DNA of 64,000 nucleotides, from NCBI GenBank assembly GCA_964016885.1, contig OZ024754.1, positions 27,218,001-27,282,000 of the forward strand, given 5' to 3'. This DNA comes from Eledone cirrhosa (lineage: Eukaryota). Below are positions 176-62,280 of this stretch, one piece after another. The notes beneath the pieces were generated by a model. The model saw nothing but the letters and a program-made list of their open reading frames with translations. It was not told the origin of the DNA and ran no database searches. Numbering within the stretch: position 1 is the stretch's first letter; each line of letters begins with the position of its first letter. The position numbers and the translations under genes were made by a program.

Positions 176-905
<730 letters not shown>

Positions 906-3557: not shown

Positions 3558-6500
3558 GGGGCCCTTTCTGCCCGTGTGTTTGTTTGTTTATGTGTGTCCG
3601 TATACAGCGTGGTGATAATGCCACACAAGGGCCAAGTGGGATGGCGGATCCACAGATGGCTATGTAAACATACATTCGCCAATCCTCGATAAGAGTGTTT
3701 AAATATCGAACATAAACAGTTCGAATAACGGTGAAATGGAGACTAGAACGTCATGTGACAGACTCTCACCCAACAGGTGCCCCCTGGCTCAGCAGCAGGA
3801 ACCTGATTGTCAACGAAATACTGCTGATGTTGGAGGAAGAAGAAGAAGGAAAGGGGCCAGAACCAACTGGACGAAAGAATTGAATAGAACTGTTATGCAA
3901 TGCTACCTGAAAAGTAACCCCAAGGAGAGGGGCTACAGGAGACGGATGCATAACATCTGGAACGAGATTGGTTTATTTAAATTAGATGAACAAAAATTGG
4001 CCGGGCAGGCTCGGGTAATAAGAACCAATGGGTGGATAAGCGAGCTGGAACTGGAGGAACTGAGCAGAGAAGTATGCCAGACAAGCGAGCCGGCGGGAAA
4101 TGAAGGTGAGGAGGTCCTGAGAGCGGAGGAACCACCCGAAGCAGACAATGATCTGAATACTGAGATAAATAATACCTGGAACAGAGATACGGCCACTGAG
4201 GAGATGAATGCTGACGGGCTAGGACAAGATTCGGTTGACATCCTAAATTTAGTGGTAGATGAGTTGAACAATGATAGTGGGAGACCTATGAACCTAAGAT
4301 TTGTAGACAGGAAAAAGTTAAAAGAAACAACAGCTAAGGTAAACAAAGTCATCCCATACCTTGAGGCGAGGAGTCTCCACCAGTGCAACAATATCCTCAA
4401 AGCAACAGCAAATACAGTGAGGAAACTACTTGGTATAAAAGCGAGAGGAAACAACAGACAAGAAAGAGCAGAGCCGTGGTGGAAGAAGCGACTGAGTGGG
4501 CAAATCGGGGAAATGAGAAATGACATAGGAAAGCTTGAGTCACTACTGAATGGGACACTAAAAAACATAGGCACTAAAAATAGACTGGATATAAAATACA
4601 AAACTAGGAGTAAAAAGCTAAATATTATCATAGAGGAATTGAAGCAACGCATTGTAGCAAAGAGTGCCAAAATCAGGCGATACGAGAACAGAGTCAGTCA
4701 GTATAAACAGAACCGCATGTTCGACAACAACCAGAAGATGCTGTTTGGACAGCTTGAGGGGAAAGAAAGAGGCACCGACTTGATCCCTGGGGCGGAACAA
4801 GCTAAAACATTCTGGAGAGGAATATGGGAGCAGGATGTTAGACACAATGCCCAGGCAGGGTGGATTGAGACAGTACAGAGGGAGATCGGTGAGCAGGCAC
4901 AGCAACAGACTGATTTGAGTATCACAGTTGAAACTCTTAAGGGGCAAGCCAAAAAACTAACCAACTGGAAATCACCAGGCCCAGATGGTGTGCAGGGGTA
5001 TTGGATTAAACATTTAACATCCCTCCACCCGAAGCTGACGGCCATGTTCAATGACTGCTTGGTGTCGGGTGAGGTGCCAGAGTGGTTGACAAAAGGTACC
5101 ACAGTTCTGATAATGAAAGACCGAATCAAGGGTAATGATGTTACCAACTATAGACCTATCACATGTCTGCCCGTAATGTGGAAACTGTTGACGAGCATTG
5201 TGTCTGAGGAAATCTACCATCACCTCCACACAAACAACTTGTTGCCGGACGAACAGAAAGGATGCCGAAAGAAGTCACGTGGTACAAAGGACCAGTTGCT
5301 TATTGATAAGATGGTAATGGGGAATTGCAGGAGGAGACACACTGATCTTGCCATGGGATGGATAGACTACAGAAAGGCATTTGACATGGTGCCTCATTCC
5401 TGGATCACCAAAAGCCTGGAGATCTTCAGGGTGGCAGATAACATCAGACAGTTGCTGGGCAGGAGTATGGGGTCCTGGGAGACAGAGTTGACATCAACTG
5501 GAGTATCCTTGGGAAGCGTGAAGATCAAGAGAGGTATCTTCCAGGGAGATAGCCTGTCCCCTCTGTTGTTTGTCCTTGCCCTGATGCCCTTGACCATTAT
5601 GCTGCGAAAAGTGAGAGCAGGATACAAGTTGGGAAGGGGAGAGCTTACCATCAATCACCTCCTCTTCATGGACGATCTTAAGCTCTTCGGGAAAAGTGAG
5701 AAGGAGTTGGATGTGCTTGTTGACACTGTCCGTATTTTCAGCAGTGATATATGTATGCAGTTTGGTATTGGTAAATGTGGAGTCATTGTGATGAGGAGGG
5801 GTAGGTTGAGCAGAAGTAACGGGATCCAGATACCAACAGGTGAGATGATAAAGGAAATTGACTCTGAGGAAGGATACAAGTATTTGGGCGTTCTGGAGGC
5901 TGATGGCATAAAGAACAAAAAAATGAAGGAATTGTTAAGAACTGAATACATTCGGAGAGTAAGGAGCGTATTGAAGTCACATCTGAACAGCAGAAATGCC
6001 ATAAGCGCAGTAAATTCCCGAGCTGTGTCTATTATTAGGTACAGTGCGGGAATTCTGAGATGGAATGTTGCTGAACAAAAAGAAATGGATAGGAAGACTA
6101 GGAAGCTATTGACTATCTACAACATGTTCCACAAGAGGAGTGATGTCGATAGACTCTACCTAAGGAGATCTGAGGGTGGAAGAGGTCTTATCAGCATAGA
6201 GGACTGTGTTCAGATGGAGAAAAACAACCTATACAAATACGTGACCTATAGTAAGGAGCCAATGCTCAGAGCTGTACTGAAGGAGGGGACAGTAGGCCAG
6301 GGGATACCCAAGGAGGAAATAACATCAAGGAGGAAGAGCAGCCTTAAGGGAAAATCCCTTCATAGTACCTTCTTTGAGAAAACTGAATTTAGAGATCCAC
6401 AGACATGGAACTGGTTGAGAAGAGGAGACCTCAAAAAGGCTACAGAAGGAATGCTAATGGCTGCGCAGGAGCAGGCCCTCAAAACGAAGTGGTTGAAGCA

Positions 6501-7190
6501 CCATATCTACAAGGAGGAGGCTAGCCCACTGTGCAGGATCTGTGGAGAGAGAGAGGAGACTGTGGCTCACATTGTGTCCGAGTGTAAACACCTAGCCCAG
6601 ACCCACTATAAGGGCTGGAGACACGATGTGATGGGCAGGGTGATCCACTGGCACCTGTGCAAAGTAAACAATCTACCACATTCTGAGAAATGGTATGAGC
6701 ATAGGCCAGAGGCGGTGATGGAGAACAGTCAGGTGAAGGTGCTGTGGGATTTTAGGATACAGACGGACAAAAAACTGGAACACAATAGACCTGACCTGGT
6801 GGTTGTGGACAAAGAAAAAAGATCGTGCCTGATTGTGGATGTGGCCTGCCCGTTCGACACGAGAGTGCAAGAGAAGGAGAGGGAGAAAATTAACCGATAC
6901 CAGGACCTAAAGTGGGAGGTGAAAAGGATTTGGAACTGCCATGAAGTCAAAGTGATCCCGATTGTCATAGGCGCACTGGGGACTATCTCCAAAGGTTTCC
7001 AGGGATGGTTAAAGAAAATCGGCCCCTTCACGCTTTTTGGAACGCTTCAAAAGGCATGCTTGCTTGGAACAGCAAGAACCCTCCGATACGTCCTGAATAT
7101 CTGAGGCTGCAGGTAGTGGCTTGATATTCAATCCAACGGACTTTCCAGTTAACCAACATCAATGACTGAGATTCAAGGAATAACAATAAC

Positions 7191-7227: not shown

Positions 7228-8146
7228 TCCGAGGAGGAAATAACATCAAGGAGAAAGAGCAGCCTTCAGGAAAAATCCCTTCATAGTACCTTCTTTGAGA
7301 AAACTGAATTCAGAGATCCACAGACATGGAACTGGTTGAAAAGAGGAGACCTTAAAAAAGGCTACAGAAGAAATGTTAATGGCTGCGCAGGAGCAGGCCC
7401 TCAAAACGAAGTGGTTGAAACACCATATTTACAAGGAGGAGGCTAGCCCACTGTGCAGGATCTGTGGAGAGAGAGAGGAGACTGTGGCTCACATTGTATC
7501 CGAGTGTAAACACCTAGCCCAGACTCACTATAAGGGCTGGAGACATGATGTGATGGGCAGGTTGATCCACTGGCACCTATGCAAAGTAAACAATCTAACA
7601 CATTCTGAGAAGTGGTATGAGCATAAGCCAGAGTCGGTGATAGAAAACGGTCAGGTGAAGGTGCTGTGGGATTTTAGGATACAGACGGACAAGAAACTGG
7701 AACACAATAGACCTGACCTGGTGGTTGTGGCCAAAGAAAAAAGATCGTGCCTGATTGGGGATGTAGCCTGCCCATTCGACACGAGAGTGCAAGAGAAGGA
7801 GAGGGAGAAAATTAACCGATACCAGGACTTAAAGTGGGAGGTAAAAAGGATTTGGAACTGCCATGAAGTCAAAGTGGTTCCGATTGTCATAGGCGCACTA
7901 GGTACTTTCTCAAAGAGTTTCCACGGATGGTTAAAGAAAATTAGTCCAGCCCCGCTTTTTGGAAGACTTCAAAAGGCATGCTTGCTGGGAACAGCAAGAA
8001 CCCTCCGATACGTCCTGAATATCTGAGGCTGCAGGTAGCGGCTTGATATTCATTTCAACAAACTTTCCAGTTAAATAACATCAATGACTGAGACTCAAAC
8101 AATAATAATAATAATAATAATAATCATAATAATAATAATAATAATA
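7228..8146 (+). mobile_element. 5'-truncated second copy of the same R4/Dong element
   Basis: Colinear with 6311-7180 with scattered substitutions; same 3' UTR; flanked on both sides by (AAT)n. Confidence 0.95.
7231..8026 (+). pseudogene. Truncated, frameshifted C-terminal part (zinc knuckle + RLE) of the R4/Dong ORF
   Basis: ORFs 7162-7446 and 7373-8026 match the C-terminus of 3736-7104; frameshift in the A-run at ~7354-7359. Confidence 0.9.
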
Positions 8147-10130: not shown

Positions 10131-10139
10131 ATATATACG

Positions 10140-13918: not shown

Positions 13919-14039
13919 TATATATATGTGTGCATGTATGTATGTATATACATACTACTGTACATCTGTATACATATATGTATGTACGTATACATACTTA
14001 TATTTATATATATATATATATACATAGATACTTAATATA

Positions 14040-14280
14040 GAAATGGCTTCTACCCGGACTAGAACTGTTTAATTCGGGAGGGCAATATGGTGGTATTTAT
14101 ACATTAGGAGTGCCTCTCAGTTTGTCTGTAGGTACTTAGCTTGAATTTTTTTCTGCCTTTGTTTCTCTAAATATAGTTTTTAAAGAATAGAAGCCATTTC
14201 ACTATTAAATACCTATACTCTGTTATGTATTGAGTACCTTACTTACTGTGGTTACCCCCGATTGAACCCGGGATTAACAC
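14040..14280. mobile_element. PLE-type terminus, family Y (diverged, inverted 5' part)
   Basis: gaaatggcttcta/tagaagccatttc inverted; ggactagaactgttt and gtattgagtaccttacttactgtggttacc shared with 60093-60272. Confidence 0.7.
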
Positions 14281-17988: not shown

Positions 17989-18190
17989 AGTAAGTAAGAC
18001 CCCGACGGCTGAGCTCAAGCCGTTTCGACGGCTAATTCTGTACTTCTAAGAGTACAGAATTAGCCGTCGAAACGGCTTGAGCTCAGCCGTCGGGGTCTTA
18101 CTTACTCCTATTACCCACTCTACTACCCTAAGTATTGAGTACTTTGGTGCGTTATGGTCCAGTTGGTTCCTTAACACTTTTCCTTCGCTA
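17985..18190 (+). mobile_element. Family X hairpin element (perfect 60-bp arms plus ~80-bp tail) in (TA)n
   Basis: 17985-18044 is the exact reverse complement of 18051-18110; contains hammerhead 3' half GAAAcggct-tgagctc-agccgTC/ggggtc. Confidence 0.9.
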
Positions 18191-18385
18191 TATATATATA
18201 TATATATATATATATAGCGAAGGAAAAGTGTATATATGTATATATATCTATGTATATGTATATATATACGTATATATGTATGAATATATATATATATATA
18301 TATATTCATACATATATACGTATATATATACATATACATAGATATATATACATATACATACTTATACATATAAACATATATATAC

Positions 18386-31424: not shown

Positions 31425-32337
31425 CCATACAATCTACAGATTAAAGACCATATCCCTAAAATATTATTTGCTTTCCTAGAGAAAAACCTCCCACCAAACC
31501 ATAAATACCATCAAATTTTTAATAGATCTACTGTCAAATTTTCCTACTCCACTACCAAGAATATACAACAGAATAAAAGTGCTTACAACACATATAAGTG
31601 TAAAAAACCCCATAAATATACCACCAACACATCAAACCAACCATAATAATACTAAAATAAACTGAAACAAACCACCTTCTTCTTCACCTATAATAGGTCC
31701 CGTAAACTCCACACCAATTTTGACTAATAATCTCCAAAACAAACAGAACTCTACCAGCTCCACATCCCCTAAACTATCACCCACCAACAACCTGTCTAAC
31801 CATAATAGTCTAATAACAACCCATTCTAAACCATACATTAATGAAATTAGTAACACTAATACCACTATAGATAACACATTTAACTCTCCTGACACAATAT
31901 TTACGAATGGTTGTAACTGTAGAATCAAAAGAAATTGCCCATTAAGGGGAAATTGTCTTATTAATAACATAGTCTATAAATGTGTAATTAGAACTAAGGA
32001 CTCCACTCAATCCTATATAGGAGCTACGTCTAACCAATTTAAAGTAAGATTTAATACCCACAAACATAGTTTTAAAAATGCCGCATTAGCTAATACAACC
32101 TCCTTGGCTGAAGCAATTAATAATTATAGAAAGAGGGATATTCATTAAAACATGACCGGCAGCGTGCTCAAAAGGGCCACCCCTTATCAAAATAGCAGAT
32201 ATGAGTGTAGGTTATGCTCCCAAGAACTATCTGAAATCATGAAATATAATGATATCCTATTAAATAAGCGAGAGGAATTAATTATATCATGCAATCATAG
32301 AATTACAAAAACCTTCAAATATTATAAACTTAATTAG
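31425..32337 (+). pseudogene. PLE C-terminal region with GIY-YIG endonuclease (frameshift ~31640, stop at 32146-32148)
   Basis: HKYHQIFNRSTVKFSYS; CNCRIKRNCPLRGNC; IVYKC...YIGATSNQFKVRFNTHKHSF; CRLCSQE...LNKREE...CNH. Confidence 0.85.
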
Positions 32338-32372
32338 TATATACCTCACTCTTATATTTTACATATCATTAT

Positions 32373-32555
32373 GATTGGCAGTATCGGTAGAGGGTAGGAC
32401 GCCATGCTTTGACGCATAGAGTTACGGCCCTTGCCATTCTGAGTTCAAATCTCGCTGAGCTTAACTATGCCTTTCATCTTTACGGGGTCGATAAAATAAA
32501 GTACCAGTAATACACTAGGTAATTGCTGGCCTTGTGCCAAAAGTAGAAACAATTA
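32373..32555 (+). mobile_element. SINE family A inserted in the PLE 3' region
   Basis: Aligns to family A. Confidence 0.9.
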
Positions 32556-33275
32556 GGATAAATTAAAACAATTTTTTAAAATTTAGTTAACCTATAATTA
32601 GAAATTTACTACAGAGAATTTCATAATTTTATTTCACTCTTACACCTCACTTTACCTAAAGTTATCTTTAACCTCACTACTTCTTTTAGCCGCATTCCCT
32701 ATTTATCACATTTAATACCTAAGATTATTAAATATAATTAATATCTTTAATATTATGGATGTTTAGATAGATACACTGCTTTCTATAAAATGTTATCTAT
32801 TTCAGTTTTCCTATATATTTTTTTTTATTTTTTAATTTTTAAATTTTTTTTATTTTTTTACTTCTTTATTTATCACATTCATAAGAATTACTATAATTTT
32901 AACTCTGTAAGTATACTTATCAATTAATTTAATTTCCTTTTCTGTATCTAGGTTCCTTGAAATTTAAATAAGATTAGTATTTCTCACTAATTGTTTTCCC
33001 CTTCGCTTTTAACAGCATTTTTTAATAACATCAAATTTTTTGGGACTCCTTCACTATTTCCTTGATTTGACCTCATTTTAACCCCTATCTTTCTCTTCCC
33101 CATTGTATTCTTTTCATTCAAAGCATAAATTTACATTCCTCCACTCCTAGCATCAAATTCTACTACTGTTATTCTATCAACTTGACCTCTAACTCTTTTC
33201 TATTGGTCAATTCAAAACCTGTTCCCAAAGGGACCTTTTATATTAATACTTTATTTCTTTCATTAAACATACTTC

Positions 33276-33416
33276 ATCATTTCTGAAGATGGCATATATA
33301 GGTGAAGGTATATATTATCTCCTCTGATAATTTGTAATATTTTATTTACAGAGATCTTTAACATCATATACATACCAACACACACATATATATCCCAGAA
33401 ACGATCGTAAAATGAT
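33276..33416 (+). ncRNA. Type I hammerhead ribozyme with extended stem II
   Basis: atcattt CTGAAGA tggcatatata...tatatatccca GAAA cgatcg TA aaatgat; 7-bp stem I, palindromic stem III. Confidence 0.75.
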
Positions 33417-44699: not shown

Positions 44700-44861
<162 letters not shown>

Positions 44862-47745: not shown

Positions 47746-47787
47746 CACACATATATATGCATATATATATATATATACATGTAAATA

Positions 47788-47974
47788 ATTGTTTCTACTT
47801 TAGGCACAAGGCCAGCAATTACCCAGTGCATTACTGGTACTTTATTTTATCGTCCCCGTAAGGATGAAAGGCAAAGTCAACCTCGGCGGGATTTGAACTC
47901 AGATCGTAAAGGGACGTAACTAAGCTGGAAAGCATGGCGTCCGACCCTCTACCGATACTGCCAATCCACCGCCC
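47788..47974 (-). mobile_element. SINE family A, full length, with 20-bp TSD
   Basis: tatatatacatgtaaataat at 47770-47789 and 47975-47994. Confidence 0.92.
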
Positions 47975-48051
47975 TATATATACATGTAAATAATGAAGTA
48001 TTACATTATGATAAAATATCTTAAGTATATATATGTATATATATATATATA

Positions 48052-48776: not shown

Positions 48777-48988
48777 TATTTGTAAAGCCAAAACAATGCA
48801 GGTATGGATATAGAATATAAATGCAAATGCTAAGGATATTTAAGTAAATTTAAGGTAAAAGACTAATTGTCAACAATATCTTTTGCATTTGCATTTATAT
48901 TCTATATACATACCTGCATTGTTTTGGCTTTACAAATACAAACGTTTATACCTCATTACACAATGCTTCAAGTGAACTATAACTTCCT

Positions 48989-48992
<4 letters not shown>
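48777..48992 (+). mobile_element. Inverted-arm element with tail (related to family Z)
   Basis: ~62-bp arms 48777-48840 and 48875-48938; tail cacaatgcttcaag..aact shared with 10096-10115; TA flanks. Confidence 0.65.
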
Positions 48993-57236: not shown

Positions 57237-57605
<369 letters not shown>

Positions 57606-59723: not shown

Positions 59724-59915
59724 TAACGAAGGAAATGTGGTAAGGAACCAGGTGGACCATAACGCACCAAAGTACTCAATACTTGAGGTAGTAGAGTGGG
59801 TAATAGGAACCAGTAAGACCCCGACAGCTAAGCTCAAGCCGTTTCGACGGCTAATTCTGGACTCAGAATTAGCCGTCGAAACGGCTTGAGCTTAGCTGTC
59901 GGGGTCTTACTGGTT

Positions 59916-59919
<4 letters not shown>
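59724..59919 (-). mobile_element. Family X hairpin element (perfect 56-bp arms)
   Basis: 59804-59859 is the exact reverse complement of 59864-59919; (TA)n on both sides. Confidence 0.9.
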
Positions 59920-59994
<75 letters not shown>

Positions 59995-59997
59995 CTG

Positions 59998-60092
<95 letters not shown>

Positions 60093-60095
<3 letters not shown>

Positions 60096-60268
60096 TTATT
60101 CCGGGTTGAGTCGGAGGTAACCACAGTAAGTAAGGTACTCAATACATAGCAGAGTATAACTGTTTTAATATAGATGAGATTCTACAGGACTAGAACTGTT
60201 TCATTCTTTAGAAAGAGATTCCTGATGATTTCTAAAGAATGAAACAGTTCTAGTCCTGTAGAATCTCA

Positions 60269-60272
<4 letters not shown>
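60093..60272. mobile_element. Family Y PLE-type terminus: head-to-head inverted copies plus tail
   Basis: Perfect arms 60170-60214 and 60229-60273; tail homologous to 14200-14280; (TA)n on both sides. Confidence 0.85.
60215..60267 (+). ncRNA. Type I hammerhead ribozyme
   Basis: gagattc CTGATGA tttc-taaa-gaat GAAA cag-ttctagtc-ctg TA gaatctc; 7-bp stem I; U-U at the base of stem II. Confidence 0.75.
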
Positions 60273-60363
<91 letters not shown>

Positions 60364-60814: not shown

Positions 60815-60913
60815 GAGGTTAACTTTGCCTTTCATCCTTACGGGGTCGATAAAATAAAGTACCAGTAATGTACTGGGTAATTGCTGCCCTTGTGCCAAAT
60901 GTAGAAACAATTA
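60815..60913 (+). mobile_element. 5'-truncated SINE A with TSD tattgaggtta
   Basis: TSD at 60811-60821 and 60912-60922. Confidence 0.85.
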
Positions 60914-62134: not shown

Positions 62135-62280
62135 TGGTTAGCTTTGCCTTTTATCCATATGGGGTGTTGATAAAATAAAGTACCAGTATTGCGCTGGGTC
62201 GATTTAATCGACCCCCCCCCCCCCCCCTCCCACCTCTCCAAATATTGTTGGTCTTGTGCCTATAGTAGAAATCATTATTA
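62135..62280 (+). mobile_element. SINE A 3' fragment
   Basis: gataaaataaagtaccagt...gtcgatttaatcgac...gtcttgtgcctatagtagaaa. Confidence 0.75.

What the first reader, a model, noticed from the sequence alone, without database searches (positions are those of the whole stretch)
60093..60272. Near-intact hammerhead embedded in a perfect DNA hairpin (family Y)
Seen: the 14-nt loop of a perfect ~45-bp inverted repeat is gagattcCTGATGA. Together with the right arm it forms a full type I hammerhead (60215-60267, GUA site). The left arm is an antisense copy truncated at stem II and continuing into a ~77-nt tail. Inference: this is the family X architecture with the catalytic 5' half retained. A read-through transcript would sequester the ribozyme in the long hairpin, whereas a transcript starting near 60215 could cleave.
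Basis: partly seen in the sequence, partly recalled or inferred. Interest (0 to 1): 0.72.

Follow-up and report, generated by a model that had tools for sequence, protein, structure and literature searches.

The report
Hydra-type Penelope stub with hammerhead hairpin
A perfect DNA hairpin that holds a hammerhead ribozyme motif sits inside a TA repeat, and it is most likely an ordinary stub of a known jumping gene (a Hydra-type Penelope retroelement), probably written as two head-to-head copies of the tip of one RNA, rather than a ribozyme switch.

Summary
In detail: a perfect 47-bp inverted repeat with a 14-nt loop, and the only type I hammerhead motif in the window (1 hit; 0 in 60 shuffles). 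Rfam's hammerhead models miss it. Its U·U pair at the base of stem II, its ACAG/CUGU stem III, its tail hairpin and its (TA)n target match published Hydra-clade Penelope-like elements (PLEs). Public reads show thousands of related contigs, two fixed attachment points to (TA)n about 67 nt apart, and head-to-head joins at many different places. So the hairpin is most likely an insertion scar: the known "inverted 5'-truncated copy plus one-sided tail" of PLEs in minimal form. The arms of one copy share private variants, which points to one template. A read-through RNA is predicted to block the ribozyme, but nothing suggests regulation; even alone the monomer is predicted to misfold. No parent ORF was found and cleavage is untested. 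The scan has reported this architecture before, in this genome and others. One extra lead: about 1-2% of laid reads show a 77-78-nt hammerhead-only tandem unit.

The parts
60093..60167 (-). One-sided tail (RNA sense on the - strand); lies between the distal and the proximal (TA)n attachment points
   Evidence: loose ends join (TA)n at 60095/60096 and at 60162 in raw reads; 92% identical over 61 nt to the copy at 14214-14274
60136..60156 (-). Small tail hairpin (5 bp, 11-nt loop) shared with family X and, by eye, with Hydra-2_Amil and Hydra-2_Ajap 3' ends; candidate RT binding or start signal (inferred)
60168..60214 (-). Left arm: 3' part of the hammerhead (stem II to beyond stem I), continuous with the tail; read as cDNA A, stopped at the base of stem II
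   Evidence: reads continue through 60214 into the antisense core in relatives
60215..60215 (.). Head-to-head junction; probably one non-inherited base
   Evidence: relatives read CCC before AGATTC; depth falls to about 8,500 at 60213-60216 against over 1,000,000 on both sides in X1
60216..60266 (+). Complete type I hammerhead of Hydra-PLE type: stem I 60216-60221/60261-60266, core 60222-60228, stem II 60229-60240, GAAA 60241-60244, stem III 60244-60259, predicted cut after 60260
   Evidence: comparison with File S2 of PMC8557442
60229..60275 (+). Right arm, tail-less, ends in (TA)n near the proximal attachment point; read, with the loop, as the complement of cDNA B
60040..60092 (.). (TA)n target, left side
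60269..60326 (.). (TA)n target, right side
14023..14280 (+). Second family-Y insertion in the opposite orientation: tail on the right, tail-less inverted arm on the left, about 100 nt of unrelated filler between, other stem I variant (GAAGCC)
59726..59920 (-). Neighbouring family-X insertion with the same architecture (57-bp arms, 4-nt loop, 77-nt tail), lacking the 5' half of the core

Best explanation
The element is a 180-bp hairpin insertion in (TA)n that is most likely the minimal insertion product of a Hydra-type Penelope-like retroelement RNA, probably made when both ends of a cut TA repeat primed reverse transcription on the same RNA at two fixed start points and the two short copies were joined head to head. 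Shown: the anatomy, the match of the hammerhead and tail to Hydra-clade PLEs, two fixed (TA)n attachment points, variable head-to-head joins, and arms that share private variants within a copy. Inferred steps: (1) a PLE GIY-YIG endonuclease cuts (TA)n; (2) one end primes at the distal point and gives cDNA A (tail, then hammerhead 3' part, stopping at the base of stem II); (3) the other end primes at the proximal point, helped by the UAUA there, and gives cDNA B (through the whole hammerhead, stopping at the base of stem I); (4) the two 3' ends are joined with one extra base and filled in. Both copies run through the GUA site, so the template was uncut or re-ligated there. The hammerhead is inherited from the parent's 3' end, where it likely works as a dimer or with protein help; at this locus it is a passenger. 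My odds: about 0.9 that it is a PLE-type insertion scar, about 0.6 for the two-copies-from-one-RNA route.
For: Hydra match: 14 of 26 Hydra-clade rows in File S2 of PMC8557442 have the same U...U at the base of stem II, and 4 of 26 have ACAG/CUGU stem III (Hydra-1_aMil, Penelope-1_NV, -1_SK, -2_SK) (counted by eye); tail hairpin like Hydra-2_Amil and Hydra-2_Ajap (by eye); almost all Hydra families insert in (TA)n and Penelope-13_HM carries an inverted 5'-truncated copy. Known PLE layout: inverted 5'-truncated copy, one-sided tail. In vitro a PLE protein cuts and extends both strands, starts at two internal sites that bound the tail, and does not need ribozyme cleavage (PMC11167929). Reads: (TA)n loose ends at 60095/60096 (442+482 of 5,250 laid reads in X19; 520+484 of 5,315 in X20) and at 60162 (355; 463); 12 of the 15 joints shown (16 found) change strand, at many places. 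Arms: within-copy differences average 2.2 per 43-45 nt against 8.8 between copies (5 two-armed X copies, 30 between-copy pairs); own arm strictly nearest in 4 of 5, tied in 1; family Y 0 of 38 within, 7 of 41 between. The loop reads in ribozyme sense on the tail-less side, which a single fold-back from the tailed end would not give (sequence). A GIY-YIG fragment with the Hydra CxCx5C linker lies elsewhere in the window.
Against: No ORF is attached and the parent was not found (no genome held; 0 true hits in three public collections), so clade and autonomy rest on short motifs compared by eye. The tail is 67-75 nt, longer than the 30-40 nt described. Identical arms are also expected from fold-back copying or from later homogenisation of a hairpin. 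Some strand-change joints may sit where subfamilies diverge from the reference and the alignment breaks, so their exact places are soft; RAD reads pile on few loci. The (TA)n ends at 60162 may all come from tail-less arms of two-armed copies. Core changes exist in some relatives: G12 changed in 223 of 2,861 X19 reads and 191 of 2,973 X20 reads, 0.2% of depth in X3 (38 rows not shown). Run X16 laid 0 of 12.8 million reads although X6 of the same organism label laid 16 contigs.
Confidence: 0.6

Rival explanations
1. Same PLE origin, but the inverted arm comes from self-priming: one cDNA (or an antisense transcript) folds back and copies itself, and the loop was later flipped or the arms homogenised.
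For: Proposed for head-to-head Penelope junctions with palindromes in Adineta (PMC3846280, passages). Explains identical arms directly. Several X copies have tiny loops of 0-6 nt.
Against: Here the loop is in ribozyme sense on the tail-less side: fold-back from the tailed end gives the opposite, and fold-back from the tail-less end cannot make the tail, so an extra step is needed. Joins with little or no arm overlap (60159 to 60216 with one base between, 60172 to 60216) and the 14023 copy with about 100 nt of filler are not fold-backs.
Confidence: 0.22
2. The template was not an autonomous PLE transcript but a small non-coding retrozyme RNA, possibly a circle made by hammerhead cutting and re-ligation, copied by a Hydra-type RT. 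Compatible with the two-ended route.
For: Both arms read through the cut site. Relatives show a head-to-tail 77-78-nt unit: 93 of 5,250 reads in X19, 36 of 5,315 in X20, 9 letter variants in the 12 rows shown. Retrozymes are described as non-autonomous PLE derivatives (bioRxiv 10.64898/2026.07.22.740005, parts 1-2).
Against: This locus has one complete hammerhead and no tandem. The tandem joint lies at an A-run shared between the sequence upstream of stem I and the proximal start, as expected from re-priming or self-insertion (ordinary partial tandem). The 77-nt unit lacks the tail that this copy carries, and relatives extend further upstream (84-nt loose end in X6).
Confidence: 0.1
3. A DNA-level foldback or MITE-like element, or a fold-back repair product at (TA)n, that happens to hold hammerhead sequence.
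For: Other inverted duplications centred on (TA)n occur in the window (374-800, 18174-18231, 44751-44846).
Against: The repeat is asymmetric (tail on one side), its centre is not (TA)n, joins vary between copies while the outer ends are fixed, and solo tailed copies exist (55791, 17395).
Confidence: 0.04
4. One reading: a conditional ribozyme, off in read-through RNA and on in an RNA that starts near 60215.
For: Folding predicts the block by the left arm; the core is intact.
Against: The junction is rare among relatives, no start site is shown, the monomer is predicted to misfold, and metazoan PLE hammerheads are reported as weak and dimer-dependent (PMC4209133).
Confidence: 0.03

Closest known systems
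Hydra-clade Penelope-like elements (Craig et al. 2021, PMC8557442; passages, section 11, supplement parts 2, 52, 53 read)
   Same: Type I hammerhead near the 3' end with U·U at the base of stem II (14 of 26 rows), ACAG/CUGU stem III (4 of 26), tail hairpin after the hammerhead, (TA)n target, inverted 5'-truncated copy (Penelope-13_HM).
   Different: No ORF here; loop III is 8 nt with a CUAG palindrome against 1-3 nt; not the same family as Hydra-1_Obim, whose hammerhead differs in every stem; tail 67-75 nt.
Inverted 5'-truncated pLTR with optional tail of endonuclease-bearing PLEs (PMC8557442 Fig. 2 legend; Adineta Pen2a, PMC3846280 passages)
   Same: Head-to-head arrangement, tail on one arm only, short overlap or palindrome at the junction.
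   Different: Both copies are truncated to about 60-120 nt, so the whole insertion is a 180-bp hairpin; no discernible target duplication because of (TA)n.
PAc Poseidon element in vitro (Frangieh et al. 2024, PMC11167929; parts 1-2 of 4 read)
   Same: Two internal RT start points that bound the tail, AT-rich target, both strands extended, uncut RNA as template.
   Different: Other clade; start points there are closer and lie inside the ORF; head-to-head joining was not reconstituted in the parts I read.
Metazoan non-LTR retrozymes (PMC7229834 passages; bioRxiv 10.64898/2026.07.22.740005 parts 1-2 of 5)
   Same: Non-coding, type I hammerhead, high copy, linked to PLEs.
   Different: This locus is not a tandem array; only a minority of relatives show a 77-78-nt tandem; no circular RNA shown.

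Membership tests
Type I hammerhead (motif level) | CUGAnGA, GAAA and UH in type I order with three stems | tested here: met
   1 hit in the window, 0 in 60 shuffles
Type I hammerhead (motif level) | Compensatory change in a stem among relatives | tested here: inconclusive
   stem I AGATTC/GAATCT here, GGCTTC/GAAGCC in the main subfamily, read from separate loose-end consensus lines, not from single molecules
Type I hammerhead (motif level) | Self-cleavage after GUA | not testable with these tools
   no RNA holder listed; needs a bench assay
Rfam Hammerhead_1 / canonical metazoan hammerhead | Scores at the family's gathering threshold | tested here: not met
Rfam Hammerhead_1 / canonical metazoan hammerhead | G10.1-C11.1 pair closing stem II | tested here: not met
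   U·U here and in relatives
Hydra-clade PLE | Single RT + C-terminal GIY-YIG ORF with RWK, DKT and CxCx5C motifs | not testable with these tools
   no ORF attached, no genome held; an unlinked fragment at 31666-32145 has CxCx5C and a weak GIY-YIG match, E 0.0085
Hydra-clade PLE | Hammerhead near the 3' end, of the form listed for the clade | tested here: met
   compared by eye
Hydra-clade PLE | Insertion into (TA)n | tested here: met
Endonuclease-bearing PLE insertion | Variable 5' truncation with fixed 3' ends | tested here: met
   fixed ends at 60095/60096 and 60162, variable joins
Endonuclease-bearing PLE insertion | Inverted 5'-truncated copy and a tail on one side | tested here: met
   tail longer than the 30-40 nt described
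Non-LTR retrozyme | Tandem units with two or more complete hammerheads | tested here: not met
   one complete motif at this locus; tandem joints only in 1-2% of laid reads from relatives
Non-LTR retrozyme | Circular RNA intermediate | not testable with these tools
   no RNA holder listed
MITE / foldback DNA transposon | Terminal inverted repeats at both ends and a fixed internal structure | tested here: not met
   one-sided tail, variable joins, solo copies

The most novel reading that the evidence does not exclude
The family records PLE integration in miniature: one RNA is copied twice from two fixed start points into both ends of a cut (TA)n, and re-priming at the proximal point has spawned a 77-78-nt hammerhead-only tandem unit that could excise and circularise itself, a near-minimal retrozyme born from a Hydra-type PLE tip.
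Probability: 0.2. Interest if true: 0.55.

Novelty: new member of a known kind. Interest (0 to 1): 0.22.

Why it matters
As a locus it matters little: it is one of very many PLE scars and probably does nothing. As a family it is a useful natural record of an unsettled step, how PLEs make inverted, one-side-tailed insertions: two fixed start points, arms from one template and variable joins can be counted in an assembly and tested in vitro. It also shows that standard Rfam hammerhead models miss an abundant Hydra-type variant, and that such scars would give long perfect hairpins in any read-through RNA.

Tried and rejected
Whole genome: none held. Rfam: no hammerhead at gathering or at E<=10 in context; the miRNA-precursor matches (best E 3.4e-09, all below gathering) only reflect the long hairpin. 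Pattern scans: 0 in metagenome contigs (two patterns), 0 in viral contigs, 1 in prokaryote genomes that lacks stems I and III and is read as chance. RNA: no RNA holder listed, which is no evidence either way. Search of 145 of 226 high-complexity open frames plus 4 longer ORFs against Pfam found no PLE RT near the element. A protein comparison for the rest of the GIY-YIG fragment failed on stop codons and was dropped. The RT at 3736-7104 was considered as the mobiliser and set aside: it has RVT_1 and a weak zf-RVT match, no GIY-YIG, and no family-Y sequence next to it. Assembly artefact rejected: strand-change joints appear in raw reads. Paper searches showed no description of this particular family; subscription papers, Repbase/Dfam and bioRxiv supplements were not visible, and the dimer-cleavage paper of Lunse et al. 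was seen only as cited in a review.

Full report
Observation. The window is AT-rich animal-like DNA full of (TA)n; a cephalopod host is my guess from a recalled SINE motif and was not tested. Between two (TA)n runs lies a 180-bp insert. A descriptor that demands the core and three paired stems finds exactly one type I hammerhead in the window, at 60222, and none in 60 shuffled windows. Rfam does not see it: nothing at gathering, no hammerhead among 46 weak matches in context, a partial Hammerhead_3 match at E 1.8 on the bare motif. The reason is probably its form: stem II is three pairs over a U·U instead of G10.1-C11.1.

The family. One more copy lies at 14023-14280 in the opposite orientation, and at least seven family-X copies share the layout and a tail motif. 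In public runs the stretch is abundant: 9,239 of 16.5 million contigs in X1, 151 of 6.9 million in X4, 16 of 13.7 million in X6, but 0 of 12.8 million raw reads in X16; 5,250 of 12.5 million and 5,315 of 12.8 million raw reads in X19 and X20, 6,579 of 16.3 million contigs in X3, 3 of 23.6 million in X9. These give no copy number. In one search none of the 17 changes at 3% or more in X1 falls in 60219-60232 or 60235-60272; variation sits in loop II, at the junction, in stem I and in the linker. Stem I of the main subfamily reads GGCTTC/GAAGCC against AGATTC/GAATCT here, two compensatory changes, but these come from separate consensus lines. Against strict conservation: G12 is changed in 223 of 2,861 and 191 of 2,973 RAD reads (few start places; 0.2% in X3), one X3 contig has a changed core, and a young family is conserved everywhere. 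Relatives have CCC in front of AGATTC, so G60215 is probably a junction base.

Which kind of element. Of 26 Hydra-clade hammerhead rows, 14 have the same U...U at the base of stem II and 4 the same ACAG/CUGU stem III (by eye). Hydra-2_Amil and Hydra-2_Ajap carry a similar small hairpin after the hammerhead (by eye). Almost all Hydra families insert in (TA)n, and one is listed with an inverted 5'-truncated copy. The same paper and Arkhipova et al. 2013 (PMC3846280, passages) describe the inverted truncated copy and the one-sided tail as typical of endonuclease-bearing PLEs. A separate fragment at 31666-32145 has the Hydra CxCx5C linker and a weak GIY-YIG match, so such elements exist in this genome, but it is not linked to family Y. 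The parent ORF was not found; membership is therefore 'works like and probably derives from', not proven.

How it was made. Raw reads join (TA)n at two fixed places, 60095/60096 and 60162, about 67 nt apart, while 12 of the 15 joints shown change strand at many different places (similar variety). Frangieh et al. 2024 (PMC11167929, parts 1-2 read) showed in vitro that a PLE protein cuts AT-rich DNA, extends both strands, starts at two internal sites that bound the tail, and uses uncut RNA. The simplest reading is that the left target end primed cDNA A at the distal site (tail, then hammerhead 3' part, stop at the base of stem II), the right end primed cDNA B at the proximal site (whole hammerhead, stop at the base of stem I), and the two were joined. 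The loop's orientation fits this without an extra step and does not fit a single fold-back. Arms of the same copy share private variants: 2.2 differences on average within the 5 two-armed X copies against 8.8 in 30 between-copy pairs, own arm strictly nearest in 4 of 5; 0 of 38 within the Y copy against 7 of 41 between Y copies. This points to one template, but fold-back copying or later homogenisation would give the same, so self-priming stays the main rival. Caveats: some joint positions may mark where subfamilies stop aligning, and RAD reads are not copy fractions.

What the ribozyme does here. But alone the monomer prefers another fold (-10.5 against -7.1 kcal/mol); a swapped dimer through the CUAG palindrome in loop III scores -24.2, better than two misfolded monomers (-21.0) though not the best dimer fold (-27.0). 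Metazoan PLE hammerheads are reported as weak and dimer-dependent (PMC4209133, parts 1-2 read; review passages). No start site near 60215 was shown and the junction is rare among relatives. The block is a by-product of the insertion, not evidence of a switch. Cleavage is untested.

An extra lead. Three of the 15 joints go back 47-51 bases with 27-31 letters between, a head-to-tail unit of 77-78 nt that holds the hammerhead but not the tail: 93 of 5,250 reads in X19, 36 of 5,315 in X20, 9 letter variants in the 12 rows shown. The join lies at an A-run shared by the sequence upstream of stem I and the proximal start point. Ordinary re-priming or self-insertion (partial tandem) explains it; a small self-excising circle is not excluded. 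Retrozyme units of 51-972 bp are already reported (bioRxiv 10.64898/2026.07.22.740005, parts 1-2 read; its supplements were not visible).

Verdict. Real, well-formed, and ordinary in kind: a new family-level example of a known PLE insertion product. The scan's own index holds several earlier reports of the same architecture in this and other genomes, none at this place or with this sequence. Eight paper searches showed no account of this family, within the limits of the library. Interest 0.22.

Noticed in passing
relatives of window 60093-60214 in runs X19, X20, X3: Head-to-tail tandem of a 77-78-nt hammerhead-only unit with the same join in several sequence variants; number of units per array unknown.
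   Followed up: partly
window 14023-14280: Second family-Y copy: by eye the tailed arm skips 19 nt covering GAAA and stem III, stops at the base of stem II like the 60093 copy, and is separated from the other arm by about 100 nt of unrelated filler.
   Followed up: partly
window 17395, 17984, 34162, 36990, 55551, 55791, 59728 (and a tail-only piece at 10136): Family X: same layout and tail motif, stem III with a palindromic loop, most copies stop within a few bases of the same point about 15 nt upstream of GAAA; none keeps the 5' half of the core.
   Followed up: partly
window 31430-33300: 3' fragment of a Hydra-like PLE (GIY-YIG with CxCx5C, stops in frame, SINE inserted after it) and a degenerate CUGAAGAU motif at 33283.
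   Followed up: partly
window 3736-7104 and 7340-8023: Open 1,122-aa reverse transcriptase frame (RVT_1 E 5.6e-23, weak zf-RVT) followed by a second piece with a zf-RVT match; looks like a young R4/Dong-type non-LTR element by recalled motifs, not tested.
   Followed up: no
window 374-800, 1847-1982, 18174-18231, 44751-44846, 48780-48990: Other long inverted duplications, several centred on (TA)n and made of non-PLE-looking flanking DNA; could come from the same two-ended activity or from fold-back repair.
   Followed up: no
window 47777-48035, 57237-57358, 60817-60900, 62136-62200, 32380-32560: Copies of one SINE-like repeat with a B-box-like motif; the one next to the finding points away from it.
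   Followed up: no
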